From Longivirga aurantiaca (GTDB lineage: Bacteria; Actinomycetota; Actinomycetes; S36-B12; CAIYMF01): a DNA stretch of 32,000 nucleotides. The position numbers and the translations under genes were made by a program. The notes beneath the pieces were generated by a model. That model was given only the letters and a program-made list of their open reading frames with translations. It made no database searches and was not told where the DNA came from. Where the stretch lies: positions 1,989,876 through 2,021,875 of the forward strand of contig NZ_JBHSTI010000008.1 of assembly GCF_042660085.1 (NCBI RefSeq), read 5' to 3'. Below are positions 1 to 12,423 of the stretch, in pieces. Position 1 is the first letter of the stretch, and the number at the start of each line of letters is the position of its first letter.

Positions 1-1
1 C

Positions 2-274: not shown

Positions 275-582
275 AGAAGCTCATCCTGATCGGCATCGGC
301 GGAGCCATCGGCTACGTGCTCGGCGCCCGCGCCGGACGACCCGCGTACGACCGGCTCCGCGACGGCTGGCAGGGCCTCACCCGCCGCGCAGGGCTCGACG
401 ACCTCGCCACCACGGCCAAGGAGGCAGCCGTGGACGTCCGTGACGTCGCCGCCGAGCGTGCATCCGACGCCATGTCCAAAGGCGCCGACGACCTCGCCCG
501 GCGCATCGACAACCTCGCGCCGAACCGCAGCAACGACGCGCACCGCACAGGGTCTGACCTCCCCCTTCCCTCCGGTCCGTGA
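271..582 (+). CDS. Small membrane-anchored hypothetical protein (YtxH-like general-stress flavour)
   Basis: ATG 271 is preceded by AAGGAG. N-terminal hydrophobic helix KKLILIGIGGAIGYVLG is followed by a charged Ala/Asp/Arg-rich tail. Strong GC3 bias. Confidence 0.6.
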   Translation: MKKLILIGIGGAIGYVLGARAGRPAYDRLRDGWQGLTRRAGLDDLATTAKEAAVDVRDVAAERASDAMSKGADDLARRIDNLAPNRSNDAHRTGSDLPLPSGP

Positions 583-608: not shown

Positions 609-634
609 GTTTGCCGGGCACCGTCAGCGGGCAT
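609..634 (+). promoter_or_regulatory. SigF/SigB-type promoter candidate P1: GTTTGC-N14-GGGCAT
   Basis: GTTTGC 609-614, 14-nt spacer, GGGCAT 629-634. The ATG at 644 lies 10 nt after the -10 box, implying a leaderless or near-leaderless mRNA. Confidence 0.55.
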
Positions 635-643
635 CCAGCGGGC

Positions 644-835
644 ATGACCGAGCAGATGCACGAGCCGGACGCCGTGGCCGACGAGAAGGCACGCGCCCAG
701 AAGGTCGAGCGCGAGGCCCTCGCCGACGGCGGCGGCCGTGCCTCGCCCGCCGACGAGGCAGCCGACGACGAGTCGAGCTATTCCACCGAGGCGGAGCAGG
801 GCGCTGCTCAGCCCACCCCCGACGGCCGGCACTGA
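644..835 (+). CDS. 63-aa acidic hypothetical protein, probably translated from a leaderless mRNA
   Basis: MTEQMHEPDAVADEKARAQKVEREALADGGG... has very strong GC3 bias. The longer 440..835 version overlaps the 271..582 gene in another frame. The P1 motif sits immediately upstream. Confidence 0.55.
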   Translation: MTEQMHEPDAVADEKARAQKVEREALADGGGRASPADEAADDESSYSTEAEQGAAQPTPDGRH

Positions 836-851
836 CCACTGCGTCACCCAG

Positions 852-876
852 GTTTAGCCCTGGCCTGCCAGGGAAC
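852..876 (+). promoter_or_regulatory. SigF/SigB-type promoter candidate P2: GTTTAG-N13-GGGAAC
   Basis: GTTTAG 852-857, 13-nt spacer, GGGAAC 871-876. It lies 48 nt upstream of ATG 924, which has the SD AAAAAGGAGAAGG. Confidence 0.55.
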
Positions 877-923
877 CGCTGAGGTCGCGCCACCGGACGG
901 GTGGCGGAAAAAAGGAGAAGGAC

Positions 924-1193
924 ATGCTCTGGTTCATCATCGTCACCATCGTGATCGGCTTCGTGGCCGGTCTCATCGCCCGTGCGATCCTGCCCGGCAA
1001 CGACTCGATGGGTCTCCTGGCGACGACCGCCCTCGGCATCGTGGGGTCGCTGCTCGGCGGCTTCCTCGGATACCTGATCACGGGTAGCGACCGCGCGGAC
1101 GGCGCGTTCCAGACGTCCGGGCTCATCGGCTCGGTGATCGGCGCGGTCCTCGTGCTGCTGCTGGTCCGGATGCTGCGTCGTGCTCGCGCCTGA
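924..1193 (+). CDS. GlsB/YeaQ/YmgE-family (transglycosylase-associated) stress membrane protein
   Basis: 89 aa with three Gly-rich TM helices (MLWFIIVTIVIGFVAGLIARAILPG...GIVGSLLGGFLGYLI...GLIGSVIGAVLVLLL), typical of the family. Strong SD. Confidence 0.85.
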   Translation: MLWFIIVTIVIGFVAGLIARAILPGNDSMGLLATTALGIVGSLLGGFLGYLITGSDRADGAFQTSGLIGSVIGAVLVLLLVRMLRRARA

Positions 1194-1767
1194 CCGGGGC
1201 GTCACGCCCCTGCGCCCCGCCGAGGACTTCATCCGCGACGTCGAGGCGTTGCGCACCCAGGCCCGGGAGAACCTCGACCGGGGCGCGGTCTCCGCGGCGT
1301 ACGGCGCGGACCTCGAGCGGGTCGTGCAGATGCTGCAGACGGCGCTTGCCACCGAGCTGGTCTGCGTCCTGCGCTATCGCCAGCACCACTACGCCGCCAC
1401 GGGTATGGACGCCGAGCCGATCGCGGCGGAGTTCCTCGCCCACTCCGAGGAGGAGCTGGGGCACGCCGGCCTCATCGCCGCGCGCATCAGCCAGCTCGGG
1501 AGCAACCCGGACTTCTCGCCGTCCACCCTCGAGGGGCGGGCGCACAGCGAGTACGTCGAGGCCGACTCGCTGCGCGCGATGGTCACGGAGAACCTCGTGG
1601 CCGAGCGGGTGGCCGTCGCCGCGTACACCGACATCATCGAGTGGCTCGGGTCGTCCGACCCGACCACCCGGCGCATGCTCGAGCAGATCCTCGCCGTGGA
1701 GGAGGAGCACGCCGACGACCTCGCCTCGATGCTCGACGGCCTTCCGGCAGCGACCGGCCCGGCCTGA
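1180..1767 (+). CDS. Ferritin-like / bacterioferritin-family domain protein
   Basis: Di-iron four-helix-bundle style motifs: ELVCVLRYRQHHY, EFLAHSEEELGHAGLIAARISQLG, EQILAVEEEHADDL. GTG 1180 overlaps the preceding gene by 14 nt, so the start is uncertain. Confidence 0.75.
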   Translation: MLAPDRGVTPLRPAEDFIRDVEALRTQARENLDRGAVSAAYGADLERVVQMLQTALATELVCVLRYRQHHYAATGMDAEPIAAEFLAHSEEELGHAGLIAARISQLGSNPDFSPSTLEGRAHSEYVEADSLRAMVTENLVAERVAVAAYTDIIEWLGSSDPTTRRMLEQILAVEEEHADDLASMLDGLPAATGPA

Positions 1768-1812
1768 TCGACGCGCCGGCATCCCCGGCGCGAACCACTC
1801 TGGAGGCACACC

Positions 1813-1968
1813 ATGATCATTCTCGGACTCATCCTCGTGATCGTCGGCTGGCTCACCAGCACCTCGATCCTCATCACCCTCGGGGCCATCCTCGCGGTGG
1901 TCGGCGTGGTGCTCGCGCTGCTCGGCGGCACGGGCCGCCCGGTGGCCGGCAGGGCGCACTGGTACTAG
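1813..1968 (+). CDS. 51-aa two-TM hydrophobic peptide (DUF6131-like small membrane protein); absent from the supplied ORF track
   Basis: ATG 1813 is preceded by GGAGG. Sequence MIILGLILVIVGWLTSTSILITLGAILAVVGVVLALLGGTGRPVAGRAHWY, stop TAG 1966-1968. Near-perfect GC3 bias. Confidence 0.65.
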   Translation: MIILGLILVIVGWLTSTSILITLGAILAVVGVVLALLGGTGRPVAGRAHWY

Positions 1969-2003
1969 GAGGACCTGAGCCTCGCACGACCTGGCTCACC
2001 GTC

Positions 2004-2039
2004 GACGGCGCGGCTGCGGGCGACCGCGGCCGCGCCGTC
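2004..2039 (+). terminator. Hairpin terminator candidate after the glsB-like/ferritin-like/small-peptide operon
   Basis: Perfect 11-bp inverted repeat GACGGCGCGGC (2004-2014) / GCCGCGCCGTC (2029-2039), with additional GCGG/CCGC pairing inside. No U-tract, which is common in actinobacteria. Confidence 0.5.
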
Positions 2040-2059
2040 GTCGTCCGCGTGGCCCGGAT

Positions 2060-2085
2060 GTTTGGGACCTCGCACGAACGGGCAC
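2060..2085 (+). promoter_or_regulatory. SigF/SigB-type promoter candidate P3: GTTTGG-N14-GGGCAC
   Basis: GTTTGG 2060-2065, 14-nt spacer, GGGCAC 2080-2085. It lies 56 nt upstream of the GTG 2141 start of the PP2C gene. Confidence 0.45.
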
Positions 2086-2140
2086 AGGGGCACCGAGCCG
2101 CGCCCTCCACCGGGGGCCCGACCCGCCACGACCACGAGGG

Positions 2141-3928
2141 GTGGTTGCACTGCCGATCGACAACGACACCGACGCGCTGCACGCGCTCTCCGTCGAGCTC
2201 GCCGGTGCCGTCGACGCGGCCGAGGTGGTCGAGGTCATCACCGCGCACTGCGCACCGCTCCTGCGCGCCAGCATGGTCACGGTCTCCACCGTCGAGGACG
2301 ACGGCACGACACTGCGCCTCGTGTCGTCGGTGAACACGCCGACCCCTGTCGTCCTCGCGTTCGACACCCATGAGAGCGGAGCGACGTTGCCCGCAGGCGA
2401 CGCGCTGCGCTCGGGCCAGCCCGTGGTGATCCGGTCCGTGGACGAGCTGCACGAGCGCTACCCGGGCCTCACGGAGGTCGACCTCGAGCACAACGCGCTG
2501 TGCGTCCTCCCCCTCCTGCGCGGCGAGGAGCCGGTGGGGGTGCTCGGCCTCGGCTGGTGCGACGCCGCCGAGATGACGGCCGAGGTCGTCGAGCTCTCGC
2601 AAGCCGTCGCCGAGGTCTGCGCGTCTGCGCTCTACCGCGCGGTGGCCGCGGCGCACCCAGGGCACGACCGCACACGGTCCGAGGCTGCCCTCGCGAGCCT
2701 GCGCTCCCTGCAGGCCGTCGCCGCCGAGCTCGCCCATACCGTCGACCTGTCGCAGGCCGCGGCCGTCGTGCTCGAGCACGCCGTCATCGCCCTGGGCGCC
2801 GAGGCCGGTGCCCTCAACGTCCTCGACGACGACGGCACCGAGTGCACGCAGATCGCCACAGTCGGGCTCGACGGGACCGAGATGGCCGGCCTGACCTCCT
2901 GGCAGGTGCGCGACTCGTCGCTCGCTCGCGAGCTCGTGCGCACCGGCCTGCCGATACTGATCACCGATTCCGAGTGCCTGCGCCGGCGCTTCCCCGACCT
3001 GGTCACGCAGGAGCCGCGGCAGGAGGCCTGGGCCACCCTGCTGCTGACCTCGGGATGCCGCAACCTCGGCATCGTCTCGATCGGCTGGCGCGAGCCGCGG
3101 GAGTTCAGCAGCGAGGACGTGAGCCTGCTGCAGACGCTGGCCGACCACCTCGCGGCGGCGCTGGACCGCAACCGCCTGATGTCGAGCAACGACGCGCTGC
3201 TCACGGAGAGCACCCGCATCGCGGAGACGCTGCAGCGTTCACTCATGCCAGGGCCGCTGCCGGAGTGGCCCGGGGTAACGATGGCCGCCGGCCTCCAGCC
3301 CGCCGAGCTGGGCACCGAGGTCTGCGGGGACTTCTACGACGCGTTCCCCGCGGTCGACGGGTCGCTCGTCGTGGTGATCGGCGACGTCGCCGGACGCGGT
3401 GTCAACGCTGCGGGGCTCACGGGCATGGTGCGCCATACGCTGAGGGCGCTCGCGCGGGACATGCCCCCTGCCGAGGCCCTCTACCGGCTCAACCGCGCAC
3501 TCGTCGAAGGTGCATGGGTGGACGAGCCGCGGCTGCTGACCGCCGCGATGCTGCGGCTCACGCGGCTCGACCACGGCATCCGGGCCGAGATCTCCCTCGC
3601 CGGCCACTGCTTGCCGGTGGTGGTCCGCGACCGTGTCGCGGAGCACGTCGGGGTGCCGGGGATGCTGCTGGGCGCCTTCGCCGACGTGCGCATCGGCACC
3701 GTGACGGTCGACCTCTCCCCCGGCGACCTCCTGCTGCTGCACACGGACGGCGTCACCGAGGCGAGGCGTCACGGCGTCGAGTTCGGCGAGTCCCGGCTGC
3801 TCAAGCTGCTCTCGGCCATGACCGACCCCCGGCCCGACGACACCGTCGAGCACGTGCTCGGGTCGGTGGACTGGTACCGCACCACCGCGCCCGATGACAT
3901 GGCCGTTCTCGTGGTCCGCGCGACCTAG
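2141..3928 (+). CDS. GAF-GAF-PP2C (SpoIIE/RsbU-type) serine phosphatase, a probable partner-switching input phosphatase
   Basis: 595 aa. Two GAF-like N-terminal modules. The C-terminal PP2C has GDFYDAF, VVIGDVAGRGVNAAGLTGMVRHTLRAL, LLLHTDGVTEAR and DDMAVLVV motifs. Confidence 0.85.
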   Translation: MVALPIDNDTDALHALSVELAGAVDAAEVVEVITAHCAPLLRASMVTVSTVEDDGTTLRLVSSVNTPTPVVLAFDTHESGATLPAGDALRSGQPVVIRSVDELHERYPGLTEVDLEHNALCVLPLLRGEEPVGVLGLGWCDAAEMTAEVVELSQAVAEVCASALYRAVAAAHPGHDRTRSEAALASLRSLQAVAAELAHTVDLSQAAAVVLEHAVIALGAEAGALNVLDDDGTECTQIATVGLDGTEMAGLTSWQVRDSSLARELVRTGLPILITDSECLRRRFPDLVTQEPRQEAWATLLLTSGCRNLGIVSIGWREPREFSSEDVSLLQTLADHLAAALDRNRLMSSNDALLTESTRIAETLQRSLMPGPLPEWPGVTMAAGLQPAELGTEVCGDFYDAFPAVDGSLVVVIGDVAGRGVNAAGLTGMVRHTLRALARDMPPAEALYRLNRALVEGAWVDEPRLLTAAMLRLTRLDHGIRAEISLAGHCLPVVVRDRVAEHVGVPGMLLGAFADVRIGTVTVDLSPGDLLLLHTDGVTEARRHGVEFGESRLLKLLSAMTDPRPDDTVEHVLGSVDWYRTTAPDDMAVLVVRAT

Positions 3929-3935
3929 CCCGGCG

Positions 3936-4823
3936 TCAGCTCCCGCCCTCCGCGAGCGCCGTGGCCTCCGCGAGCGTGCGCTGCACCAGTCCGCCCGCCT
4001 CGACCTCCGTCCAGCTGACCGGCGTCGCCGCCGTCGGCCGCTCCCTCCCCCGCAGCGACCACGGGACGATCGTCGTCTTGGCCGGGTTGTTCTGGCTCCA
4101 GTCGACGAGCACCTTGCCGGGCCGCAGGTCGCGTGCCTGCCGGGTGACCACGAGGGCGGGCAGCGCCGCCTCGAGCCGCGCGGCGAGCGCGTGGGCGTAG
4201 TCGCTCTCCGAGCCGGCGTCGTGCACCGCTTCCGCGCCGTCACCGAGATCGGCGTACAGCTGCATGCCCTTCGAGCCGCTGGTGACTGCGCGGGCGACGA
4301 GGCCGTCCGCGACCAGCAGACCGCGGGTCGCCAGCGCCACCTCGGCGCACGCGTCGAGCCCGGCCGGCGCCCCGGGGTCGAGGTCGACGACCAGCCGGTC
4401 GGGCGCCAGCGGCTCGCCCGTCGCGCGGTCGACGCGCCACTGCGGCGCGTGCAGCTCCAAGGCGCCCGACTGCGCGAGCCACACGAGCACCGCCTCGTCG
4501 TCGACGAGCGGGTAGTCGAGGTCGCGCCCCTCGTGGCCGGACCGCTGACCCGTGTGGTGCTGCGTCATGCGCGGCACCCAGTCGGGCGCGCCGCGCGGGA
4601 GGTTCTTCTCGATGAACGGCTTCTGCTCCACGCCGTCCGGCCAGCGCTTGCGCGTGACCGGCCGGTCGCGCATCTCGGGCAGGATCGACGGAGCGACGGC
4701 GAGGTAGTACTGCAGCACGTCCGCCTTGGTGGTCGCGGTTGCCGGGTACAGCACCTTGTCGAGGTTGGTGACCCGCACCTCCCGCCCGGCGACCGACAGC
4801 CACCCACCCTCGGCGCCGCTCAC
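3936..4823 (-). CDS. ligD: Stand-alone LigD polymerase/primase domain protein (NHEJ PolDom)
   Basis: 295 aa. Opening (V)SGAEGGWLSVAGREVRVTNLDKVLYP, then VDLDPG, SGSKGMQLY and KVLVDWSQN motifs are typical of the LigD Pol domain. No ligase or nuclease domain. Divergent from ku. Confidence 0.85.
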   Translation of the reverse strand: MSGAEGGWLSVAGREVRVTNLDKVLYPATATTKADVLQYYLAVAPSILPEMRDRPVTRKRWPDGVEQKPFIEKNLPRGAPDWVPRMTQHHTGQRSGHEGRDLDYPLVDDEAVLVWLAQSGALELHAPQWRVDRATGEPLAPDRLVVDLDPGAPAGLDACAEVALATRGLLVADGLVARAVTSGSKGMQLYADLGDGAEAVHDAGSESDYAHALAARLEAALPALVVTRQARDLRPGKVLVDWSQNNPAKTTIVPWSLRGRERPTAATPVSWTEVEAGGLVQRTLAEATALAEGGS

Positions 4824-4868
4824 ACGAGGACCTCGTCCGCAGTCTTCGACAGGCGCCGTTGCGCGCTG

Positions 4869-4894
4869 GTTTGGCTCCCGGTCATGGCGGGCAT
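4869..4894 (+). promoter_or_regulatory. SigF/SigB-type promoter candidate P4: GTTTGG-N14-GGGCAT, upstream of ku
   Basis: GTTTGG 4869-4874, 14-nt spacer, GGGCAT 4889-4894. It lies 40 nt upstream of ATG 4934, with SD GGAGGAG at about 4921. Confidence 0.55.
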
Positions 4895-4933
4895 CCTCTC
4901 CGATGGTGTACGTCCCGACGGAGGAGAACGACG

Positions 4934-5923
4934 ATGCAGTCGATGTGGAAGGGGTCCGTCTCGTTCGGGCTCGTCAACGTGCCGGTCAAGCTGTACGCCG
5001 CCACCGAGGACCACGACGTGCGTTTCCACCAGGTCCACGCCGCCGACGGCGGCCGCGTGAAGATGGTGCGCACCTGCTCGGTCGACGGGCAACCCGTCGC
5101 CTACGCCGATCTCGCGAAGGCGTACGAGACCAGCAGCGGTGAGCTCGTGGTGATGGAGGAGCGCGACTTCGACGCCCTGCCGGTGCCGGGCAAGCGCGAG
5201 ATCGACGTGCTCGAGTTCGTACCCTCGGACCAGGTCGACCCGGTGCTGTTCGACCGCAGCTACTACCTCGAGCCCGAGGCCCGGGCCCTCAAGCCATACG
5301 TCCTCCTGCGCGAGGCGCTGCGCACCACCGAGCGCACCGCCCTCGTGCGCGTGGTGCTGCGCCAGAAGGCCCAGCTCGCGGCGCTCCGCGTGCGCGACGA
5401 CGTGATCCTCATGCAGACGATGCTGTGGCCGGACGAGGTGCGGCGTGCGACGTTCGATGTCCTGCACACCGACGCCGAGGTGCGCCCGCAGGAGCTCGCC
5501 ATGGCGTCCTCGCTGATCGACAGCCTGTCGAGCGACTTCGACCCCGACGAGTACCACGATGACTACCGCGAGGCCCTCCTCGAGGTGATCGACCGCAAGG
5601 TCGCGGGCGGCGCCGGAGTGCCGGCCGACACCGCAACCGTCCCCGAGGACGAGGGCGACGCCATAGTGGTCGACCTCATGGCCGCGCTGCGCGAGTCGGT
5701 GAAGAGGACGAGCGCAGGCGAGGACGCCCGGGCCCAGAATCGTCCGGCGGGCCCTGCGACGAGGGCCGCCCCGAAGAAGGCCGCTGCCAAGAAGGCGGCG
5801 GCGAAGAAGGCTGTCGGCACGAAGTCTGCCGCGAGCAAGCCGACGCCGCGGAAGGCCGCTGGTCCCACCAAGGCGGCGGCGAAGAAGGCCGCTTCGAAGC
5901 CCGCGCGGAGGCGCAGCGCCTGA
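4934..5923 (+). CDS. ku: Ku DNA end-binding protein with a Lys/Ala-rich basic C-terminal tail
   Basis: MQSMWKGSVSFGLVNVPVKLYAATEDHDVRFHQVH... is a canonical bacterial Ku N-terminus. The tail reads AAPKKAAAKKAAAKKAVGTKSAASKPTPRKAAGPTKAAAKKAASKPARRRSA. Confidence 0.95.
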   Translation: MQSMWKGSVSFGLVNVPVKLYAATEDHDVRFHQVHAADGGRVKMVRTCSVDGQPVAYADLAKAYETSSGELVVMEERDFDALPVPGKREIDVLEFVPSDQVDPVLFDRSYYLEPEARALKPYVLLREALRTTERTALVRVVLRQKAQLAALRVRDDVILMQTMLWPDEVRRATFDVLHTDAEVRPQELAMASSLIDSLSSDFDPDEYHDDYREALLEVIDRKVAGGAGVPADTATVPEDEGDAIVVDLMAALRESVKRTSAGEDARAQNRPAGPATRAAPKKAAAKKAAAKKAVGTKSAASKPTPRKAAGPTKAAAKKAASKPARRRSA

Positions 5924-5981
5924 CGGGCGGGGCAGTGCGGGACAGCGGCGCATCGGTGTGCTGGCCTCCCCCGGGGCGAGT

Positions 5982-6017
5982 GGTGCCCGGGACGGGAGGG
6001 GTCTCGTCCCGGGCACC
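5982..6017. terminator. Strong hairpin between convergent ku and hemerythrin genes (bidirectional terminator candidate)
   Basis: Perfect 13-bp arms GGTGCCCGGGACG (5982-5994) / CGTCCCGGGCACC (6005-6017), extendable to about 16 bp around a GGGG loop. No U-tract. Confidence 0.6.
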
Positions 6018-6023
6018 TCCGAA

Positions 6024-6048
6024 CTACCCGGCGGCCCAAGCGGCAAAC
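6024..6048 (-). promoter_or_regulatory. Orphan SigF/SigB-type promoter candidate P5 (minus strand): GTTTGC-N13-GGGTAG
   Basis: Minus-strand read is GTTTGC (6048-6043), 13-nt spacer, GGGTAG (6029-6024). It points into the 5982-6017 hairpin and the antisense of the ku 3' end. There is no plausible downstream ORF. Confidence 0.4.
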
Positions 6049-6069
6049 CTGGGACGTCGGGGAGCGTGG

Positions 6070-6486
6070 TCAGCGCGCGGCCTCGGGGCTGCCGCTCATC
6101 CGCTGCCCCAGCTCCTGCAGGTCCTTGCGCCCGAACGCCTCGCGCACCGCGGGGAAGAGCTCGCTCTCCTCCTCCTCGATGTGGTGCTTCACGTTCTCGA
6201 TGAGCACCGTGGCCTTGGCCCGGTAGGTCTCCGCGCCGGGGTCCATCGCCCGCAGCTCGCCGATGAGCATGTGCACCACGTGGTGCTCCTCGATCGACTC
6301 CAGCACGAGGTCGCGGCCGGGGATGACGTCCTTGACCTCGGGGTAGAAGTAGGTCTCCTCGATCGCAGCGTGGCGGTCGAGCTCGTCGCAGATCGTGGGC
6401 ACGACCGACGTCTCGCCCTTGTCGAACCGGGTGAAGAGCTTCTTCACGGCTGCGTGGTCCTCGCGCAGCATGACGATGGCGTCCAT
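6070..6486 (-). CDS. Hemerythrin-domain protein
   Basis: 138 aa: MDAIVMLREDHAAVKKLF...EETYFYPE...EEHHVVHMLIGEL...VKHHIEEEESELFP (His/Glu/Asp di-iron ligand pattern). SD GGAGAC lies before ATG 6486. Confidence 0.85.
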   Translation of the reverse strand: MDAIVMLREDHAAVKKLFTRFDKGETSVVPTICDELDRHAAIEETYFYPEVKDVIPGRDLVLESIEEHHVVHMLIGELRAMDPGAETYRAKATVLIENVKHHIEEEESELFPAVREAFGRKDLQELGQRMSGSPEAAR

Positions 6487-6529
6487 GGTGGTCTCCTGTC
6501 GTGGCGGTGCGGGTTCGCACCGGTCCCGA

Positions 6530-6554
6530 CTACCCCCGCGGCGCACGGCGAAAC
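6530..6554 (-). promoter_or_regulatory. SigF/SigB-type promoter candidate P6 (minus strand): GTTTCG-N13-GGGTAG, upstream of hemerythrin
   Basis: Minus-strand read is GTTTCG (6554-6549), 13-nt spacer, GGGTAG (6535-6530). It lies 44 nt upstream of ATG 6486. Confidence 0.55.
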
Positions 6555-6567
6555 GCGCAGGGACCGG

Positions 6568-8679
6568 TCACGGCAGCTGGTGCGCCACGAAGGGGGTGAC
6601 GCTGCGCGCCCCGGCCTCGCGGAGCAGAGCCCCGGCGAGCGTGGCGGTCCAGCCCGTGCGCCAGGTCTCGTCGACGAGCAGCATCGGGCCCTCAGGCACC
6701 TCGGCGCCCGGGGCGAGCGAGATGCGTGCTGCCTGCGCGCACGCGCGCCCGGCGGGCGAGAGGTCGGAGCCGGGCGGAGGCCCGTCCAGCACGATCGCGT
6801 CGAGGAGGGGGATGCCCACCCCGTGCGCGATGGTCACGGCGATCGAGTGCACGAGGCGCGGATGCCGCGAGCTCGGCACCGGCGCAACCGCCTCGAGCCG
6901 CTGCGGCAGCGACGGGAGCCAGCGGCCGAACGACCGCTCCAGTGCGGCGAGCAGCCAGTCAGGCGCCGGAGCATCGGGGGCCAGGGGCCCGGTGACCGTG
7001 GCCATCCGGTCCCACGCCGGGTCGTCGGCGAAGGCGAGCGCGCGACCGGGCGAGAGGGCGAGCGACGGCGCGATCCGTCCGCGCCATGCGGGCCGTCCGC
7101 TCGCGGCGTCGATGCCGGAGGTGAACATCTTGCGCGGCTCGAGCGGCACGACGAGGTCGCGCAGCCAGGCGCGCGCCGCCTCGCGAGCCTCGGGGTCGGT
7201 GGTGGTCGGGAGCCCGGCCGGGAGCGTGCCCGTGCACACCGAGCAGCGGCCGCACCGTTCTCCCTGCTCGGTCGGGTCGTCGAGCGAGCGCCGCAGCAGC
7301 ACCTCGAGGCAGTCCCCGCCGACGACGTACTCGCGCATGATGTCCGACTCGCGCCGGCGCACCGCGACGAGCGCGTCGTACTTCTCGTGGTCGTAGGTCC
7401 AGTCCTGGCCGGTCGCGGCCCACGACGTGCCCTCGCGCGACACCGCGCCGTCGACCGCGAGGACCTTCACGAGCAGCTCCACGCGGGTGCGGCGTACGCC
7501 GGTCGCGGCCTCGAGGGCGGGCACGCTCAACGCGCCCTGGTAGCGCAGGGCTGCGAGCACGGCGGCCGCCTCGTCGGGCCTCGGCACGCTGGCGGTGGCG
7601 AACCACTCCCACAGCCGCTCGTCCGAGTCGCCGGGCAGCAGCACCACGCTCGCCTCGGGCAGCGCGCGGCCGGCGCGGCCGACCTGCTGGTAGTAGTCGA
7701 CGGGCGACGACGGCGAGCCCACGTGGATGCAGAACGCGAGGTCGGGCTTGTCGTAGCCCATGCCGAGGGCGGAGGTGGCGACGACGGCCTTCAGCTCGTT
7801 GACCTTGAGCGCAGCCTCGATCCGCGCGCGGTCCGCGGTCTCGGTCTTCCCGGAGTATGCCGCCACCGCGTGACCGCGCTCGGCGAGGAACCCGGCGAGG
7901 CGGTCGGCGTCCGCCACCGTGAGGCAGTAGACGATGCCCGACCCCGGCAGCTGCCGCAGCGCCTGGTCGGTCCACGCATAACGGTCGAACGACGACAGCC
8001 CGGCGAGCACGCCGAGGTGCAGCGACTCGCGCGCGAGCCGGCCGCGCTGGACGAACGTGTTGGCGCCGAGCTGGTCGGCGACGTCGGCCGTCACCCGCGA
8101 GTTGGCGGTGGCGGTCGTGGCCAGCACGGGGAGGTCCGGGTTGGCCAGCAGCAGACCGGCGATGCGCTGGTAGTCGGGGCGGAAGTCGTGGCCCCACGAC
8201 GAGATGCAGTGGGCCTCGTCGATCACGAGGAGGCCGAGCTGCGGCAGCAGCACGTCGAGCACGGTCGCGGAGAAGCGCGGGTTGGCGAGGCGCTCGGGCG
8301 ACACGAGCAGGACGTCGACCTGCCCCGCCATCAGTGCGCGCTCGACGTCGGGCCAGTCGTCGAGGTTGGAGGAGTTGAGCGTGGCCGCGGTGAGCCCTGC
8401 GCGCTGAGCGGCGACGACCTGGTCGCCGATAAGCGAGAGCAGCGGCGACACCACGAGCACCGGGCCTCCCCCGGCGTCGCGGACGGCGCGCGCGGCGATC
8501 CAGTAGACGGCCGACTTGCCCCATCCGGTGGCCTGGACGACGAGCGCGCGACGCCGCTCGAGCACGAGCGCCGACACCGCCGCGCGCTGGTCGTCGCGCA
8601 CGATCGCGTCGGGCCCTGCGAGCGCGGTGATGACGCGCGCAGCCGCCGCGTCGAGCGCTGCCGCGGTCACGGCGGTCAC
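6568..8679 (-). CDS. RecQ-family (RqlH-like) DNA helicase with a tetracysteine module and a C-terminal phosphoribosyltransferase-like (ComF-like) domain
   Basis: 703 aa. Helicase motifs ATGWGKSAVYW, VIDEAHCISSWGHDFRPDY and ATTATAN. A Cys cluster (GGDC...CGRCSVC). The C-terminus has LLVDETWRTGWTATLAGALLREAGA, resembling a degenerate PRTase loop. GTG 8679 overlaps the upstream stop (GTGA). Confidence 0.85.
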   Translation of the reverse strand: MTAVTAAALDAAAARVITALAGPDAIVRDDQRAAVSALVLERRRALVVQATGWGKSAVYWIAARAVRDAGGGPVLVVSPLLSLIGDQVVAAQRAGLTAATLNSSNLDDWPDVERALMAGQVDVLLVSPERLANPRFSATVLDVLLPQLGLLVIDEAHCISSWGHDFRPDYQRIAGLLLANPDLPVLATTATANSRVTADVADQLGANTFVQRGRLARESLHLGVLAGLSSFDRYAWTDQALRQLPGSGIVYCLTVADADRLAGFLAERGHAVAAYSGKTETADRARIEAALKVNELKAVVATSALGMGYDKPDLAFCIHVGSPSSPVDYYQQVGRAGRALPEASVVLLPGDSDERLWEWFATASVPRPDEAAAVLAALRYQGALSVPALEAATGVRRTRVELLVKVLAVDGAVSREGTSWAATGQDWTYDHEKYDALVAVRRRESDIMREYVVGGDCLEVLLRRSLDDPTEQGERCGRCSVCTGTLPAGLPTTTDPEAREAARAWLRDLVVPLEPRKMFTSGIDAASGRPAWRGRIAPSLALSPGRALAFADDPAWDRMATVTGPLAPDAPAPDWLLAALERSFGRWLPSLPQRLEAVAPVPSSRHPRLVHSIAVTIAHGVGIPLLDAIVLDGPPPGSDLSPAGRACAQAARISLAPGAEVPEGPMLLVDETWRTGWTATLAGALLREAGARSVTPFVAHQLP

Positions 8680-9488
8680 GCGGGCACCGCGTCGAGGGAG
8701 TCGACGAGGGCGGCCAGGGCGGCACCGAGCCGGGCGACCTCGGCGGCCACCGGCTCGCCATCGCCGTCGAGGTACTGGTCGCGGCGGATCTCGACCATGA
8801 GCGACGACACCCGCCGGTCCTTCCCGTAGTGGCGCAGCGGCACGTACGTGCCGGCGAAGGGCTGGTCGACGGCGGTCTCCCACTCGCGGAACGCTTCGGC
8901 CGCGCGGTCACGAAGCCAGCCCGGGGTGTGCCGCTCGTCGAAGCCGAGGCACACGGCCGGGCGCGCGGCCTCGGGGTGGCGCTCGTAGGGCAGGACGTCG
9001 CGCGGGTAGGAGTGCACGTCCACCACCAGCGCACGTCCGTGCGCGTCGAGCCGCGCCGACACGAGGTCGGCGAGCGACTCGGCGTACGGCGTGAAGTAGC
9101 GCGCGAGGAGGTCTGCGCGATGGGCCGGGTCGGCGTCGCGCAGCGGCCCGAGCACCGACGTCGCGGTGTAGACCGCCCCCATGCCGATCGCGTCCATCTC
9201 CTCCGCGCCGGGCTCGGTGAACCGCTCGGGGTCGACGACGAGGCGCGAGAGCCGGTTGACGAACGACCACGGCCGGATGCGCGCCGCCGCCGCCGCGTGG
9301 GCCGCTACGACATCGGTGGACGCATCGGTCATCGCGCGCAGCTCGGCGGCGAGCGCGTCGTCGTCGAGCAGGATCCGTGCGCGGACGTCGGACGGGATGA
9401 CGGTCGAGGCGTGCGGAACGTGCAGCACCACGGACGACGAGGCGTCACCGGGGACGACGTCGAACGAGGACTGCTGCGCGGAGGCCAT
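8676..9488 (-). CDS. N-formylglutamate amidohydrolase (FGase) family hydrolase
   Basis: 270 aa. VVLHVPHASTVIPSDV, LVVDPERF and ALVVDVHSYP are typical of the FGase family. Translationally coupled to the helicase. Confidence 0.75.
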   Translation of the reverse strand: MASAQQSSFDVVPGDASSSVVLHVPHASTVIPSDVRARILLDDDALAAELRAMTDASTDVVAAHAAAAARIRPWSFVNRLSRLVVDPERFTEPGAEEMDAIGMGAVYTATSVLGPLRDADPAHRADLLARYFTPYAESLADLVSARLDAHGRALVVDVHSYPRDVLPYERHPEAARPAVCLGFDERHTPGWLRDRAAEAFREWETAVDQPFAGTYVPLRHYGKDRRVSSLMVEIRRDQYLDGDGEPVAAEVARLGAALAALVDSLDAVPA

Positions 9489-9495
9489 GGGAGCG

Positions 9496-9501
9496 ACCGT
9501 A
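9496..9501 (-). promoter_or_regulatory. Candidate -10 box TACGGT (TANNNT) 7 nt upstream of ATG 9488; a leaderless FGase-helicase transcript
   Basis: Minus strand reads TACGGT-cgctccc-ATG, with no SD. This geometry is typical of actinobacterial leaderless genes. Confidence 0.35.
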
Positions 9502-9595
9502 GGCGACGGGTGCGACGGCAGTGGGGCGGGGCGGCGCGCGCGGTCCGCGGCGGTGGGCCGCACGGACGCACGCCCGGACCTAGCATGACCACGAT

Positions 9596-9620
9596 GTTTG
9601 GCCCGCCTCCGAGGGGGTAC
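9596..9620 (+). promoter_or_regulatory. SigF/SigB-type promoter candidate P7: GTTTGG-N13-GGGTAC, upstream of the HATPase/STAS pair
   Basis: GTTTGG 9596-9601, 13-nt spacer, GGGTAC 9615-9620. This is the best match to the consensus in the window. It argues against the upstream ATG 9585 as the start of the next gene. Confidence 0.6.
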
Positions 9621-9662
9621 TGGCATCTCGTGAGGTGCGCTCGGACCAGCCGAAGGACTGTT

Positions 9663-10088
9663 GTGACGCAGAGGCGGAAGCCCGCCGCCACCGGTCGTGG
9701 TGGGGGCGCGGTGACGCTCGTCCTCGACGAGGACGGGCGCGCGGTGTGGCGATCGACTCTGCGCAGCGCGCTCACGGAGGCCGCGTCGCCTGGCACGGTG
9801 GAAGACGCGATCATCGTGGCGGGAGAGCTCGTGGCGAACGCGCTCGAGCACGGTCTCCCGCCGGCCACCCTCGAGGTGGTCGTCGAGCCTGCGGGCTCGG
9901 TGCTGGTGTCGGTGCTCGACCATGGCTCGGTCGTTCCGCTGTCACCGATGCCGATCTCGCTCGAGGCGGTGCGGGGGCGCGGGCTCCTGATCGTGGACTC
10001 CCTCACGACCGAGTGGGGCGTTCTCGAGAGCGCGAAGGGAAAGGCCGTCTGGGCACGGGTGGCCAGGGACGGCGAGGCAGGACCGTGA
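9663..10088 (+). CDS. RsbW-like HATPase serine kinase / anti-sigma regulatory factor
   Basis: N-box ELVANALEHG, G1-like VSVLDHGSV, G2-like GRGLLIVDSL. Start chosen at GTG 9663 (SD GAAGGA, downstream of P7). ATG 9585 or other GTGs are possible. Confidence 0.75.
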   Translation: MTQRRKPAATGRGGGAVTLVLDEDGRAVWRSTLRSALTEAASPGTVEDAIIVAGELVANALEHGLPPATLEVVVEPAGSVLVSVLDHGSVVPLSPMPISLEAVRGRGLLIVDSLTTEWGVLESAKGKAVWARVARDGEAGP

Positions 10089-10111
10089 AGACCAACGAGA
10101 GGCAGACCCCC

Positions 10112-10429
10112 ATGTCACCAGCACCCGTCGTGATCACGCTCGCGGGCGAGTACGACATCGCCAATGCACCCGAGCTGCTGGAGATCCTGACCAGCGGCGG
10201 ACCCGAGGCGCCCGTCGTCGCCGACCTCCGGGACGTGACGTTCCTCGACTCCGCGGCGCTGTCGCAGCTCGTGCGCGCGAACTCCCAGCTCTCGGAGGCT
10301 GGCGGCTCGCTCACGCTGGTGCTGCCGACCTCGGGGCCGGTCGCCAGGGTCATGTCGATCACGCAGCTGGACTCTGCCCTGACCACGACGGGCTCGGTCG
10401 AGCAGGCGCTCGCCGATCTCGGCGGCTGA
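10112..10429 (+). CDS. STAS-domain anti-sigma-factor antagonist (RsbV/RsfB-like)
   Basis: 105 aa. VVITLAGEYDIANAPELLE...ADLRDVTFLDSAALSQLV, with the conserved phosphorylatable Ser in the DS(A/G) context. Confidence 0.85.
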   Translation: MSPAPVVITLAGEYDIANAPELLEILTSGGPEAPVVADLRDVTFLDSAALSQLVRANSQLSEAGGSLTLVLPTSGPVARVMSITQLDSALTTTGSVEQALADLGG

Positions 10430-10450
10430 GGCGGTCGGCCGGGCTGCCGG

Positions 10451-11311
10451 TCACTCGTCGAGCAGGCCTTCGCGCAGCACGGCGAGCGACTTGGCCAGCA
10501 GCCTCGACACGTGCATCTGCGAGATGCCGACCTCCTCGGAGATCTGCGTCTGGGTCATCCCGCGGAAGAACCGCAGCACCAGGATCCTGCGCTCGCGCGC
10601 CGGCAGCTGCGCGAGCAGGGGCCGCAGCGACTCGCGGTACTCGATCGTCTCGATGCCCGGGTCGTCGGCGCCCATGAGGTCGGCCAGCGACCCGGAGTCG
10701 TCGGACGAGCCGACGTGGGCGTCCAGGCTCGTGTAGCTGTACGCCTGCGCGCCCTCGAGACCCTCGAGCACCTCCTCCTCGCTGATGCCGAGCTGCACCG
10801 CGAGCTCCGCCACGGTGGGCGTGCGTCCTGTTCGCTGTGAGAGCTCAGCCGTCGCCTGACCGAGCGACATGCGCAGCTCCTGCAGGCGCCGCGGCACGCG
10901 GATCGCCCACCCCTTGTCGCGGAAGTGCCGCTTGATCTCGCCGATGACGGTGGGCGTGGCGTACGTCGCCAGCTCGACGCCGCGCTCGAGCTCGAACCGG
11001 TCGACCGCCTTGAGCAGGCCGATCATCCCCACCTGGGTGAGGTCCTCGAGCGGCTCGCCGCGGTCACGGAACCTGCGGGCGAGGTACTGCACCAGCGGGA
11101 TGTGCAGGGTGACGAGGTCGTCGCGCGCCCGTTGGTGCTCGGCGGACTCGGCGTCGGTGCTCGCCAGCACCTCGAGCAGCTCGCGCTCGCGCGCCCGGTG
11201 GGCGTCGCCCCAGCCGCGCGGCAGCACGGCGTCGCCCGACGGCTCGTGGGCGGGCGTCACGTCCTCGTCGGTCGGCGGCGGCGCGCCCGCATGCGCCGCG
11301 GAATGGTTCAC
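10451..11311 (-). CDS. sigF: SigB/SigF/SigG-family alternative sigma factor (closest in look to mycobacterial SigF)
   Basis: Regions 2-4: EDLTQVGMIGLLKAVDRF, YATPTVIGEIKRHFRDKGWAIRVPRRLQEL, LVLRFFRGMTQTQISEEVGISQMHVSRLLAKSLAVLR. GTG 11311 overlaps the anti-sigma stop (GTGA). Confidence 0.9.
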   Translation of the reverse strand: MNHSAAHAGAPPPTDEDVTPAHEPSGDAVLPRGWGDAHRARERELLEVLASTDAESAEHQRARDDLVTLHIPLVQYLARRFRDRGEPLEDLTQVGMIGLLKAVDRFELERGVELATYATPTVIGEIKRHFRDKGWAIRVPRRLQELRMSLGQATAELSQRTGRTPTVAELAVQLGISEEEVLEGLEGAQAYSYTSLDAHVGSSDDSGSLADLMGADDPGIETIEYRESLRPLLAQLPARERRILVLRFFRGMTQTQISEEVGISQMHVSRLLAKSLAVLREGLLDE

Positions 11312-11742
11312 GACGGGTCGGCCGACGAGGTGCCGGTCGACGTGGTGCCGGTCGACGTGGTGCCGGCGGTGGCGCTCGAGCGCGACGCGCGCAGCGAGAT
11401 GGTGACGCCGTCCGGCGTCTCCTCGGCCCACAGGTCGACCACCAGCGCGGCGAGCACGGCCCAGGCGAAGCTGTCCTCGCTCGGCAGCACCGATCCCTCG
11501 CACCGGCCCGTGATGCTGATGAGGACGGCGGCGTCCTCGACGTCGAGCCGTACGTCGATCACCGAGCCCGGCTCGGCGCTCGCGGCCAGGAGTCCGGCCG
11601 CCTCTCCGACGGCCAGGCGGATGTCCTCGAGCTGCTCGAGGTCGAATCCCACGCGCGAGGCGACCGCGACCGCGGTGGAGCGCACCAGTGACACCCAGCC
11701 GGTCTCGGCCGGCACGGACAGTCGAACGGCGTTCTGGGTCAT
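11308..11742 (-). CDS. rsbW: UsfX/RsbW-like anti-sigma factor
   Basis: 144 aa immediately upstream of, and overlapping, the sigma gene, as in mycobacterial usfX-sigF. Has EDIRLAVGEAAG and DSFAWAVLAALVVDL. SD GAGGAG. No clear N/G1/G2 kinase boxes seen. Confidence 0.75.
   Translation of the reverse strand: MTQNAVRLSVPAETGWVSLVRSTAVAVASRVGFDLEQLEDIRLAVGEAAGLLAASAEPGSVIDVRLDVEDAAVLISITGRCEGSVLPSEDSFAWAVLAALVVDLWAEETPDGVTISLRASRSSATAGTTSTGTTSTGTSSADPS
11329..11366. repeat. 15-bp tandem repeat (about 2.5 copies) inside the anti-sigma 3' end
   Basis: GGTGCCGGTCGACGT x2 plus a partial third copy. On the minus strand it encodes TSTGT-TSTGT in the Ser/Thr/Gly tail. Confidence 0.8.
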
Positions 11743-11860
11743 CCGAGCTGCTCCTCGTCACCGGTGGGCATCGTGCCTGCGACGCTAACGCCGTGGCCGG
11801 GTCGCCACCAGCGCGCGCACGGTGGCGCGGACGGGGCGAGGGCACAGATCACGATGCGTG

Positions 11861-11886
11861 CTGCCCCCGATCCGGCCATCCCAAAC
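11861..11886 (-). promoter_or_regulatory. SigF/SigB-type promoter candidate P8 (minus strand): GTTTGG-N14-GGGCAG, upstream of rsbW-sigF (autoregulation)
   Basis: Minus-strand read is GTTTGG (11886-11881), 14-nt spacer, GGGCAG (11866-11861). It lies 119 nt upstream of ATG 11742. Confidence 0.45.
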
Positions 11887-11905: not shown

Positions 11906-11959
11906 GCGATTCGTTAGTGGAATCTCGCACTCGGCCCCGAGTTTCCACTACCGAATCGC
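11906..11959. repeat. Long imperfect inverted repeat / hairpin in an AT-richer intergenic patch
   Basis: 17-bp arms GCGATTCGTTAGTGGAA (11906-11922) / TTCCACTACCGAATCGC (11943-11959) with 1 mismatch. A nested perfect 6-bp repeat ACTCGG/CCGAGT (11929-11942) lies inside. Confidence 0.8.
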
Positions 11960-12259: not shown

Positions 12260-12423
12260 CCCCCTCCCGCGACCCTGCACTCAGCCACCGATGGGCGTCA
12301 GGCGGTATGCCGTGTTCGCTTGGGGCTGAACGCTTCTCCGCGATATGGCTCCCGATCCGGATCCTACTGTCGGAGGTGGCTGAGAGGCTTTCATCAGTCG
12401 TCCAGCAGATGAGGGAGGTGACC

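What the first reader, a model, noticed from the sequence alone, without database searches (positions are those of the whole stretch)
609..11886. Eight GTTT-N15/16-GGGnA (SigF/SigB-type) promoter motifs concentrated in the 12 kb around the sigF locus
Read directly from the sequence, in the order position / strand / motif / target. P1: 609-634, +, GTTTGC-N14-GGGCAT, 63-aa acidic ORF. P2: 852-876, +, GTTTAG-N13-GGGAAC, glsB-like/ferritin-like/51-aa peptide operon. P3: 2060-2085, +, GTTTGG-N14-GGGCAC, GAF-PP2C. P4: 4869-4894, +, GTTTGG-N14-GGGCAT, ku. P5: 6048-6024, -, GTTTGC-N13-GGGTAG, no gene. P6: 6554-6530, -, GTTTCG-N13-GGGTAG, hemerythrin. P7: 9596-9620, +, GTTTGG-N13-GGGTAC, HATPase/STAS. 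P8: 11886-11861, -, GTTTGG-N14-GGGCAG, rsbW-sigF. All eight are intergenic. Seven are correctly oriented 10-119 nt upstream of a start codon. My eye-scan for GTTT/AAAC in 12-32 kb found no correctly spaced partner. From memory, the pattern matches the mycobacterial SigF consensus (about GTTT-N15-17-GGGTA) and the Bacillus SigB consensus (GTTTAA-N12-15-GGGWAW). Rough back-of-envelope, not a computed statistic: with about 14% each A/T, fewer than one chance hit is expected on both strands of 32 kb. Inference: this is a compact, autoregulated stress-sigma regulon island. Its membership goes beyond classic general-stress proteins, since it includes NHEJ, a sensor phosphatase and a second kinase/antagonist pair.
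Basis: partly seen in the sequence, partly recalled or inferred. Interest (0 to 1): 0.8.

Follow-up and report, generated by a model that had tools for sequence, protein, structure and literature searches.

The report
Stress-sigma promoter cluster beside sigF
Eight real, evolutionarily conserved SigF/SigB-type promoter sites sit in front of stress, DNA-repair and sigma-regulator genes next to the sigma factor gene of the actinobacterium Longivirga aurantiaca; the same layout is already documented experimentally next to sigF in Mycobacterium smegmatis, so this is a good new example and not a new kind of system.

Summary
GTTT-N15/16-GGGNA occurs 8 times in the window, all between 609 and 11886, against 0.2 expected. 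A weight matrix trained only on relatives scores the eight at 15.8-21.9 bits; the next best position scores 9.2. All eight are intergenic. Seven lie 10-119 nt before a start codon on the right strand. In four further lineages (77-88% DNA identity), all 20 testable orthologous positions keep both boxes, the spacing and the distance to the start codon, while the spacers diverge. The adjacent sigma belongs to the SigB/SigF/SigG family and is translationally coupled to an RsbW-like anti-sigma. Corrections: the cluster continues left of the window (3 more sites). P5 ("no gene") is conserved and sits directly before an invariant 36-nt hairpin, so it is a candidate SigF-dependent non-coding RNA convergent with ku. 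The hemerythrin gene with P6 occurs only in Longivirga among the syntenic relatives. The layout is not new: M. smegmatis MSMEG_1758-1804, next to rsbW-sigF, is packed with SigF-dependent genes carrying the same promoters, including a second RsbW. ku under a SigF-type promoter and the P5 RNA are modest new leads. No expression data exist.

The parts
609..634 (+). P1 GTTTGC-N14-GGGCAT, promoter of the 63-aa acidic ORF; only 10 nt to the ATG, so the mRNA is probably leaderless
   Evidence: (19.7 bits); motif kept in L169, L001 and L165
644..835 (+). 63-aa acidic protein with no family match
   Evidence: orthologue in L001
852..876 (+). P2 GTTTAG-N13-GGGAAC, promoter of the GlsB / ferritin-like / DUF6131 operon; constant 48-50 nt leader with a conserved stem-loop
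   Evidence: (16.6 bits); kept in L170, L169, L001 and L165
924..1968 (+). Operon: Transgly_assoc/GlsB (924-1193), ferritin/Dps-like (1180-1767), DUF6131 (1813-1968)
2060..2085 (+). P3 GTTTGG-N14-GGGCAC, promoter of the GAF-GAF-PP2C gene
   Evidence: (20.6 bits); kept in L170, L169, L001/L163 and L165
2141..3928 (+). GAF-GAF-PP2C (SpoIIE-type) phosphatase, the presumed input phosphatase of the partner switch
   Evidence: SpoIIE 5.5e-37, two GAF domains
4869..4894 (+). P4 GTTTGG-N14-GGGCAT, promoter of ku; constant 38-40 nt leader
   Evidence: (15.8 bits); kept in L170, L169, L163 and L165
4934..5923 (+). Ku with a Lys/Ala-rich tail
   Evidence: Ku 7.6e-48
6024..6048 (-). P5 GTTTGC-N13-GGGTAG, conserved orphan promoter pointing at the 3' end of ku
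   Evidence: 19.6 bits; boxes conserved, spacer diverged in L001, L163, L165
5983..6018 (-). 36-nt hairpin (13-bp stem, C-rich loop on the minus strand) starting about 6 nt after P5's -10 box; candidate 5' end of a non-coding RNA, and/or a two-way terminator between ku and hemerythrin
   Evidence: sequence invariant apart from a 1-nt loop indel; fold; unique in the window; no Rfam family; control terminator does vary
6530..6554 (-). P6 GTTTCG-N13-GGGTAG, promoter of the hemerythrin gene
   Evidence: 18.5 bits; this gene and its site are absent from L001, L163 and L165
6070..6486 (-). Hemerythrin-domain protein
9596..9620 (+). P7 GTTTGG-N13-GGGTAC, promoter of the second HATPase/STAS pair
   Evidence: (21.9 bits); kept in L001, L165 and L081
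9663..10429 (+). RsbW-like HATPase_c_2 protein (9663-10088) and STAS anti-anti-sigma (10085-10429, with the FLDS motif)
   Evidence: PF13581, 31.1 bits against a cutoff of 27.4; STAS; TIGR00377, 55.1 against 53.45
11861..11886 (-). P8 GTTTGG-N14-GGGCAG, autoregulatory promoter of rsbW-sigF with a 119-nt leader
   Evidence: (18.1 bits); kept in L001 and L081
10451..11742 (-). rsbW-like anti-sigma (11308-11742) and the SigB/F/G-family sigma (10451-11311), joined by a GTGA start/stop overlap
1..582 (+). 3' end of a GT4 glycosyltransferase gene (to 274) and a 103-aa ORF (271-582); their motif-bearing promoter lies about 0.94 kb left of the window
   Evidence: (L162 1964-1987 +)

Best explanation
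The eight sites are functional promoters for a group-3 alternative sigma factor of the SigB/SigF/SigG family, most likely the one encoded at 10451-11311. Together they form part of a locally clustered general-stress/dormancy regulon in Longivirga aurantiaca (Sporichthyaceae). Proposed mechanism follows. Shown by sequence and comparison: the sigma gene is translationally coupled to an RsbW-like anti-sigma; a STAS antagonist with the conserved FLDS serine, a second RsbW-like HATPase and a GAF-GAF-PP2C phosphatase lie nearby; each unit carries a conserved GTTT-N15/16-GGGNA site at a fixed distance from its start codon. Inferred from the known Bacillus SigB and mycobacterial SigF partner switches: RsbW holds the sigma inactive and phosphorylates the STAS protein; a signal sensed by the GAF domains activates the PP2C, which dephosphorylates STAS; STAS then captures RsbW and frees the sigma. 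The freed sigma transcribes its own operon (P8), the phosphatase (P3) and the second HATPase/STAS pair (P7), giving feedback. It also transcribes the effectors: Ku (P4), GlsB / ferritin-like / DUF6131 (P2), hemerythrin (P6), a small acidic protein from a probably leaderless mRNA (P1), glycosyltransferases and small proteins just left of the window, and a short non-coding RNA that starts with an invariant hairpin and runs convergent with ku (P5). Gene content of the cluster turns over between lineages. The hemerythrin gene carries its own site. Where the ferritin gene lies between GlsB and DUF6131, DUF6131 lacks the site of its own that it has in L001 and L165.
For: Enrichment: 8 hits against 0.2 expected. 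Clean PWM separation with a matrix trained on other genomes. Background of 0.03 per kb around sigma homologues elsewhere. All 57 strict sites in eight island-type loci fall outside called genes. Footprint: in L170 (88% nt identity), L169 (79%), L001=L163 (78%) and L165 (77%), all 20 testable orthologous positions keep both boxes, the 15/16 spacing and the distance to the start (Ku 38-40 nt, GlsB 48-50 nt), while spacers differ. More distant relatives (L171, L172, L166) again show 4-8 sites per 12-22 kb next to STAS, HATPase, PP2C, CsbD, hemerythrin and GlsB-ferritin genes. Sigma identity: TIGR02980 298 bits against 234; best solved relatives are 8x6g_H, deposited only as 'RNA polymerase sigma factor', and 1l0o_C, 'sigma factor'. 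The motif equals the experimentally defined SigF consensus, and a SigF-dependent gene cluster sits next to rsbW-sigF in M. smegmatis (PMC4694148). rsbW3 feedback: PMC7693655. Invariant GGG and A in the -10 box across Streptomyces SigB homologues: PMC8346170.
Against: There is no transcript, TSS or sigma-mutant data for this organism. The rest of the genome could not be scanned, so I cannot say what share of the regulon the cluster holds or whether other SigB/F paralogues exist; in S. coelicolor nine homologues cross-recognise such promoters (PMC8346170). The sigma scores below the cutoff of the mycobacterial SigF model (312 against 372). Loci around the next-closest sigma homologues (70-76% identity, L082-L085) share no synteny beyond rsbW-sigF and carry at most one strict motif, so the motif-sigma link rests on one clade. 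LigD-PrimPol, the helicase and FGase inside the span have no site.
Confidence: 0.8

Rival explanations
1. The sites are real SigB/F-type promoters but are read mainly by a different paralogous sigma encoded elsewhere in the genome. In that case the adjacency to this sigma gene reflects shared ancestry of a stress island and not direct control.
For: All nine S. coelicolor SigB homologues cross-recognise GTTT/GGGNA promoters (PMC8346170). I could not count paralogues in Longivirga. Loci around sigma homologues of 70-76% identity have no such cluster.
Against: A conserved site sits before rsbW-sigF itself, as in autoregulated sigB and sigF operons. The cluster travels with this sigma gene in L001 and L165.
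Confidence: 0.13
2. P5 and its hairpin do not make a functional RNA. The hairpin is simply the two-way terminator of the convergent genes (ku against hemerythrin or helicase), and P5 fires a short abortive or pervasive transcript.
For: The hairpin lies between convergent genes. It folds slightly better on the ku strand, with a 16-bp stem using a G-U pair, than on the P5 strand. There is no Rfam match. Only three lineages are available and they show no variation, so covariation cannot be tested.
Against: P5's two boxes are conserved while its spacer has diverged, which is the signature of selection on a promoter. The hairpin, loop included, is invariant across about 77% identical genomes. In the same genomes the ordinary terminator after DUF6131 shows compensatory stem changes and loop turnover. 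Neither strand has a U-tract after the hairpin.
Confidence: 0.4
3. The bipartite motif is the binding site of a transcription factor or another DNA-level signal, not a promoter.
For: Nothing specific; this can never be excluded from sequence alone.
Against: The motif is asymmetric and strictly oriented toward genes. It sits at promoter-like distances (10-119 nt), including leaderless spacing that matches known SigF promoters in M. smegmatis (8-11 nt entries in PMC4694148). It has identical -35/-10 architecture and spacing to a characterised sigma family whose gene lies next door.
Confidence: 0.03
4. Chance or compositional artefact: A/T-containing words pile up in the less G+C-rich intergenic DNA.
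For: GTTT is more likely in intergenic DNA of a 73% G+C genome.
Against: 0 of 100 shuffles reach 8 hits. There are no hits in the other 20 kb, which holds a similar intergenic fraction. All 20 testable orthologous positions keep the motif in diverged relatives.
Confidence: 0.01

Closest known systems
Mycobacterium smegmatis SigF regulon, in particular the MSMEG_1758-MSMEG_1804 region beside rsbW1-sigF (Singh et al. 2015, PMC4694148; Oh et al. 2020, PMC7693655)
   Same: Same promoter grammar (GTTT-N15/16-GGGTA, GGGCA or GGGAA). Many separately promoted SigF-dependent units packed next to rsbW-sigF. An autoregulated sigma operon. A second RsbW homologue under SigF control as a feedback element. 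Hemerythrin and Dps/ferritin-type genes in the regulon. Several very short promoter-to-start distances.
   Different: Different order (Sporichthyales, not Mycobacteriales). The sigma scores below the mycobacterial SigF model cutoff. Cluster content differs: Ku, GAF-GAF-PP2C, GlsB-ferritin-DUF6131, glycosyltransferases. ku is not in the M. smegmatis SigF list. Nothing here is experimentally verified.
Bacillus subtilis SigB general stress regulon and partner switch (RsbU/P-RsbV-RsbW-SigB)
   Same: GTTTAA-N12-14-GGGWAW consensus (quoted in PMC8346170). PP2C / STAS / HATPase-kinase / sigma logic. Autoregulated operon. CsbD- and GlsB/YmgE-type small stress proteins (CsbD with a site in L163 and L166).
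   Different: The spacer is one to two nt longer here. The input phosphatase carries GAF domains. The regulon genes are physically clustered.
Stress- or sporulation-sigma control of bacterial NHEJ (S. meliloti RpoE2 on ku3-ku4/ligD4; B. subtilis SigG on ykoV-ykoU; PMC6379672, PMC5124664)
   Same: ku is placed under an alternative sigma linked to stress or dormancy. SigG is in the same SigB/F/G family.
   Different: Here only ku has the site; the adjacent LigD-PrimPol gene does not. The control is predicted, not shown, and in an actinobacterium, where the sigma controlling ku has not been reported in the papers I read.
SfdS/F6, the SigF-dependent small RNA of M. tuberculosis (PMC8557902)
   Same: A non-coding transcript driven by a canonical SigF promoter; this is the precedent for P5.
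   Different: No sequence or Rfam similarity. The P5 RNA would be convergent with or antisense to ku and begin with an invariant hairpin. Its existence is only inferred.

Membership tests
SigB/SigF/SigG family sigma factors (TIGR02980) | Score above the curated family cutoff, with sigma-70 regions 2, 3 and 4 present | tested here: met
   298.1 bits against a cutoff of 234.35; Pfam r2, r3 and r4 all present; the two best PDB hits, 8x6g_H and 1l0o_C, carry only the generic names 'RNA polymerase sigma factor' and 'sigma factor'
Mycobacterial-type SigF (NF005514) | Score above the curated subfamily cutoff | tested here: not met
   312.4 bits against a cutoff of 372. It is SigF-like but should not be filed in that subfamily.
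SigB/SigF partner-switching module | Anti-sigma serine kinase (HATPase_c_2) gene immediately upstream of, and coupled to, the sigma gene | tested here: met
   11308-11742: PF13581, 27.7 bits against a cutoff of 27.4; weak RsbW model hits far below cutoff (39.4 bits against 145); GTGA start/stop overlap with the sigma gene
SigB/SigF partner-switching module | STAS anti-anti-sigma with the phosphorylatable serine in the DS motif | tested here: met
   TIGR00377, 55.1 bits against a cutoff of 53.45; sequence DLRDVTFLDSAALSQL. Assignment of the serine rests on my knowledge of SpoIIAA/RsbV.
SigB/SigF partner-switching module | PP2C phosphatase that acts on the STAS protein | tested here: inconclusive
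   The SpoIIE/PP2C domain is present (5.5e-37) and its promoter carries the motif, but its substrate cannot be tested here.
SigF/SigB-type promoters | -35 GTTT and -10 GGGNA separated by 15-16 nt between GTTT and GGG, intergenic and oriented toward genes | tested here: met
   published consensus in PMC4694148 and PMC8346170
SigF/SigB-type promoters | Transcription start a few nt after the -10 box, and loss of the transcript without the sigma | not testable with these tools
   No transcriptome or mutant data for Longivirga or the related metagenome-derived genomes.
SigF regulon cluster adjacent to sigF (as in M. smegmatis MSMEG_1758-1804) | Many independently promoted motif-bearing units within a few tens of kb of rsbW-sigF, far above the background density | tested here: met
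   8 sites in 11.3 kb, plus 3 more to the left in L162; none in the other 20 kb; 0.03 per kb in control loci
Known RNA families (Rfam 15) | P5 hairpin RNA matches a curated family | tested here: not met
   No hit at gathering score in the window. The best E-value hits are meaningless miRNA hairpins far below their cutoffs.

The most novel reading that the evidence does not exclude
P5 drives a previously undescribed SigF-dependent non-coding RNA, conserved in Sporichthyaceae-like actinobacteria. Its 5' end is a sequence-invariant 36-nt hairpin with a C-rich, CCUCC-containing loop, and it runs antisense into the 3' end of the SigF-dependent ku mRNA. It would tune NHEJ, or Shine-Dalgarno-containing stress mRNAs, during dormancy. 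Together with P4 this would place actinobacterial double-strand-break repair under a stress-sigma feed-forward circuit with an RNA arm.
Probability: 0.3. Interest if true: 0.55.

Novelty: new member of a known kind. Interest (0 to 1): 0.38.

Why it matters
It gives a clean, comparatively validated promoter model and a starter regulon for the stress sigma of a barely studied actinobacterial family and its freshwater and soil relatives. It suggests that the clustering of SigF-dependent genes beside sigF, seen experimentally in M. smegmatis, extends beyond Mycobacteriales to at least one other actinobacterial clade. It predicts that ku is a direct SigF-type target in an actinobacterium; the papers I read report growth-phase control of ku but name no sigma for it. 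It also points to a candidate stress-induced RNA next to ku. None of this changes how such systems are understood.

Tried and rejected
(1) Chance or composition: rejected by shuffles, PWM separation and orthologous conservation.
(2) Conservation near sigma homologues in general: 155 loci from the genome and metagenome scans, excluding the five closest, hold only background levels of the strict motif. The 70-76% identical sigma loci L082-L085 are not syntenic, so they were of no use as comparators.
(3) A small ORF behind P5: candidate starts are not in a common frame in W, L001 and L165, and the long antisense-of-ku frame has low third-position G+C (my reading). Rejected as coding.
(4) Rfam match for the P5 hairpin: none.
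(5) The hairpin as a repeated element: a single copy in the window, and only at the orthologous spot in the loci.
(6) Covariation test for the hairpin: impossible because it does not vary. More distant relatives fetched for this purpose (L166-L168, L171, L172) lack the adjacent ku.
(7) Motif sites for LigD-PrimPol, helicase-FGase and the 12-32 kb genes: none above 9.2 bits.
(8) Canonical sigma-70 promoters and U-tailed terminators in 1-12.4 kb: none useful.
(9) Going further left in the same genome: not possible, because look-ups are restricted to window proteins; only L162 (2.9 kb) was obtained.
(10) The second HATPase as a recent duplicate of RsbW: no significant pairwise similarity; they share only the Pfam domain.

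Full report
**Source and gene map**

The window comes from Longivirga aurantiaca (Actinomycetes, Sporichthyales, Sporichthyaceae). The GAF-PP2C protein is 100% identical to an NCBI entry of that species.

The DNA is 73% G+C. A third-position G+C gene caller plus Pfam and NCBIfam searches give this map for 1-12 kb:
- 1-274 (+): end of a GT4 glycosyltransferase gene
- 271-582 (+): 103-aa ORF
- 644-835 (+): 63-aa acidic ORF
- 924-1193 (+): Transgly_assoc/GlsB
- 1180-1767 (+): ferritin/Dps-like
- 1813-1968 (+): DUF6131
- 2141-3928 (+): GAF-GAF-PP2C
- 3936-4823 (-): LigD primase-polymerase
- 4934-5923 (+): Ku
- 6070-6486 (-): hemerythrin
- 6568-8679 (-): DEAD-box helicase
- 8676-9488 (-): FGase
- 9663-10088 (+): HATPase_c_2
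- 10085-10429 (+): STAS
- 10451-11311 (-): sigma factor
- 11308-11742 (-): RsbW-like anti-sigma

Yes. GTTT-N15-17-GGGNA matches exactly the eight stated sites and nothing else in the 32 kb. Dinucleotide-preserving shuffles give 0.20 hits on average and never more than 2.

To avoid circularity I trained a two-block weight matrix only on sites from related genomes. The eight window sites score 15.8-21.9 bits. The ninth-best position scores 9.2 bits and lies inside a gene.

All eight fall in the roughly 10% of the region that is non-coding. Seven precede a same-strand start codon by 10-119 nt.

As an outside control, 155 loci (2.0 Mb) around homologous sigma genes of other actinobacteria hold the strict motif at about 0.03 per kb, against 0.67 per kb here.

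**Comparative test**

Syntenic relatives were found through the sigma (L001, a "Nanopelagicales" MAG) and through homologues of the GAF-PP2C protein:
- L170: 88% nucleotide identity to the window.
- L169: 79%.
- L001: 78%. L163 and L164 are the same organism as L001.
- L165: 77%.
- L162 and L081 are near-identical Longivirga contigs.

Every orthologous position that these contigs reach keeps the motif:
- acidic ORF: 3 of 3
- GlsB: 4 of 4
- GAF-PP2C: 4 of 4
- Ku: 4 of 4
- P5: 2 of 2
- P7: 2 of 2
- P8: 1 of 1

That is 20 of 20.

The boxes, the 15/16 spacing and the distance to the start codon are kept (Ku 38-40 nt, GlsB 48-50 nt), while the spacer sequences differ. This is the classical footprint of a promoter.

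More distant relatives, with about 60% PP2C identity (L171, L172, L166), again show 4-8 sites per 12-22 kb. Those sites sit in front of STAS, HATPase, PP2C, CsbD, hemerythrin, SDR and GlsB-ferritin-DUF6131 genes.

Across eight such loci, 57 of 57 strict sites lie outside called genes.

**Which sigma?**

The adjacent sigma passes the SigB/SigF/SigG family model (298 bits against 234). It fails the narrower mycobacterial SigF model (312 against 372). Its two best solved relatives are 8x6g_H and 1l0o_C, which the depositors name only as a sigma factor.

It overlaps an RsbW-like gene by GTGA. P8 lies 119 nt before that operon and is conserved in L001.

The motif equals the experimentally derived M. 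smegmatis SigF consensus, GTTT-N14-19-GGGTA with GGGCA and GGGAA variants (PMC4694148). It also matches the invariant GGG..A of Streptomyces and Bacillus SigB-type promoters (PMC8346170).

One caveat remains. SigB paralogues cross-recognise such promoters in Streptomyces (same paper), and I could not count paralogues in this genome.

1. The cluster is truncated by the window edge. L162 reaches 2.9 kb further left and holds three more sites. One precedes a 68-aa membrane ORF. One precedes the GT4 / 103-aa operon whose end is window 1-582. The third is another orphan site.

2. P5 is not a stray site. Its boxes are conserved and its spacer is not. About six nucleotides after its -10 box comes a 36-nt hairpin (5983-6018) that is identical in three lineages apart from one loop nucleotide.
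   - The hairpin is unique in the window and matches no Rfam family.
   - No consistent ORF follows it.
   - As an internal control, the ordinary terminator hairpin after DUF6131 shows compensatory stem changes and loop turnover in the same genomes.
   - The hairpin folds on both strands, slightly better on the ku strand.
   - So it may be a two-way terminator, the 5' end of a SigF-dependent RNA convergent with ku, or both. SfdS/F6 of M. tuberculosis is a precedent for a SigF-driven small RNA (PMC8557902).

3. The hemerythrin gene with P6 is found only in Longivirga among the syntenic relatives. It lies between the helicase gene and P5.

4. In genomes that lack the ferritin gene, DUF6131 has its own motif site.

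5. LigD-PrimPol, the helicase and FGase have no site. The NHEJ membership therefore concerns ku only.

**Mechanism**

Shown by sequence and comparison:
- the parts list of a partner switch: an RsbW-like anti-sigma, a STAS protein with the FLDS serine, a second HATPase and a GAF-GAF-PP2C;
- conserved sigma-type promoters on the sigma operon, on the switch components and on the effector genes.

Inferred by analogy with Bacillus SigB and mycobacterial SigF:
- A signal acts through the GAF domains and activates the PP2C.
- The PP2C dephosphorylates STAS, which then captures RsbW and releases the sigma.
- The sigma amplifies itself and its regulators.
- The sigma also turns on protective functions: iron/oxidative protection (ferritin-like, hemerythrin), membrane stress proteins, cell-envelope glycosyltransferases and DNA-end protection by Ku.
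- P1 lies only 10 nt before its ATG, which implies a leaderless mRNA. Several M. smegmatis SigF promoters have the same 8-11 nt spacing.

**Comparison with what is known, and novelty**

The architecture is already documented. In M. smegmatis the stretch MSMEG_1758-1804 ends in rsbW1-sigF. It is filled with genes that lose expression in a sigF mutant and that carry GTTT-N15/16-GGG(T/C/A)A sites (PMC4694148).

That stretch includes rsbW3, which acts as a positive-feedback element (PMC7693655). Hemerythrins and Dps are SigF-dependent there too.

ku under a stress or sporulation sigma is known from S. meliloti (RpoE2) and B. subtilis (SigG) (PMC6379672, PMC5124664). ku is not in the M. smegmatis SigF list.

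The finding is therefore a new member of a known kind. It is a well-supported SigF-type regulon cluster in another actinobacterial order, with two modest new leads: ku as a direct target, and the P5 hairpin RNA.

**Limits**

- There are no expression data.
- Only three lineages cover P5.
- The assignment to this particular sigma, and not to a paralogue, is inferred from adjacency and from the conserved autoregulatory site.

Noticed in passing
window 5983-6018 (minus strand), with L001 14787-14826 and L165 12143-12182: A 36-nt hairpin right after P5 is sequence-invariant in three lineages, loop included apart from a 1-nt indel. On the minus strand its loop is C-rich (ACCCCUCC), which resembles an anti-Shine-Dalgarno sequence.
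   Followed up: partly
L162 1662-1686 (-), about 1.2 kb left of the window; L165 1744-1768 (-); L001 19773-19797 (+): A second conserved orphan motif site is convergent with a motif-driven 68-aa membrane ORF. In L001/L163 that ORF is gone, and the two promoters face each other about 80 nt apart.
   Followed up: partly
window 889-906 (GlsB leader): A 5'-UTR stem-loop, GCCACC-N4/5-GGTGGC, is conserved in five lineages at a fixed place in a constant 48-50 nt leader; only the loop varies.
   Followed up: no
window 4903-4911 (ku leader): A short block, cGAyGGTGT, lies 8-16 nt after the -10 box of P4 and is conserved in all five lineages. It could be a start-site context or a second regulator's site.
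   Followed up: no
window about 11760-11790 (minus strand, rsbW leader): A block GCGTTAGCGTCGC..GCACGA..GCCCA about 50 nt before the rsbW start is conserved between Longivirga and L001. TAGCGT fits the actinobacterial TANNNT -10 box, so the sigma operon may also have a basal housekeeping promoter.
   Followed up: no
window 11906-11927 / 11938-11959: A 22-nt inverted repeat, 91% complementary with a 10-nt gap, sits just upstream of P8's -35 box. It is relatively A/T-rich, present in Longivirga (window, L081) and absent from L001.
   Followed up: partly
window 1180-1767, against L001 and L165: The ferritin-like gene sits between GlsB and DUF6131 in Longivirga, L170, L169 and L172. Where it is absent, DUF6131 carries its own motif site. 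This is an example of cluster remodelling.
   Followed up: partly
L163 7242-7265 (-), L166 19245-19268 (-): CsbD-family genes, a hallmark SigB-dependent general stress protein family in Bacillus, carry the same motif in relatives. L166 and L172 also hold HATPase-DUF6328 neighbours, with Top1B in L166, which recalls the gene annotations at M. smegmatis MSMEG_1784-1787.
   Followed up: no
window 12409-14118: A DUF222 gene lies directly beyond P8. It is only 54% identical to its L001 counterpart while its neighbours are 75-89% identical, so it is fast-evolving or was replaced.
   Followed up: no
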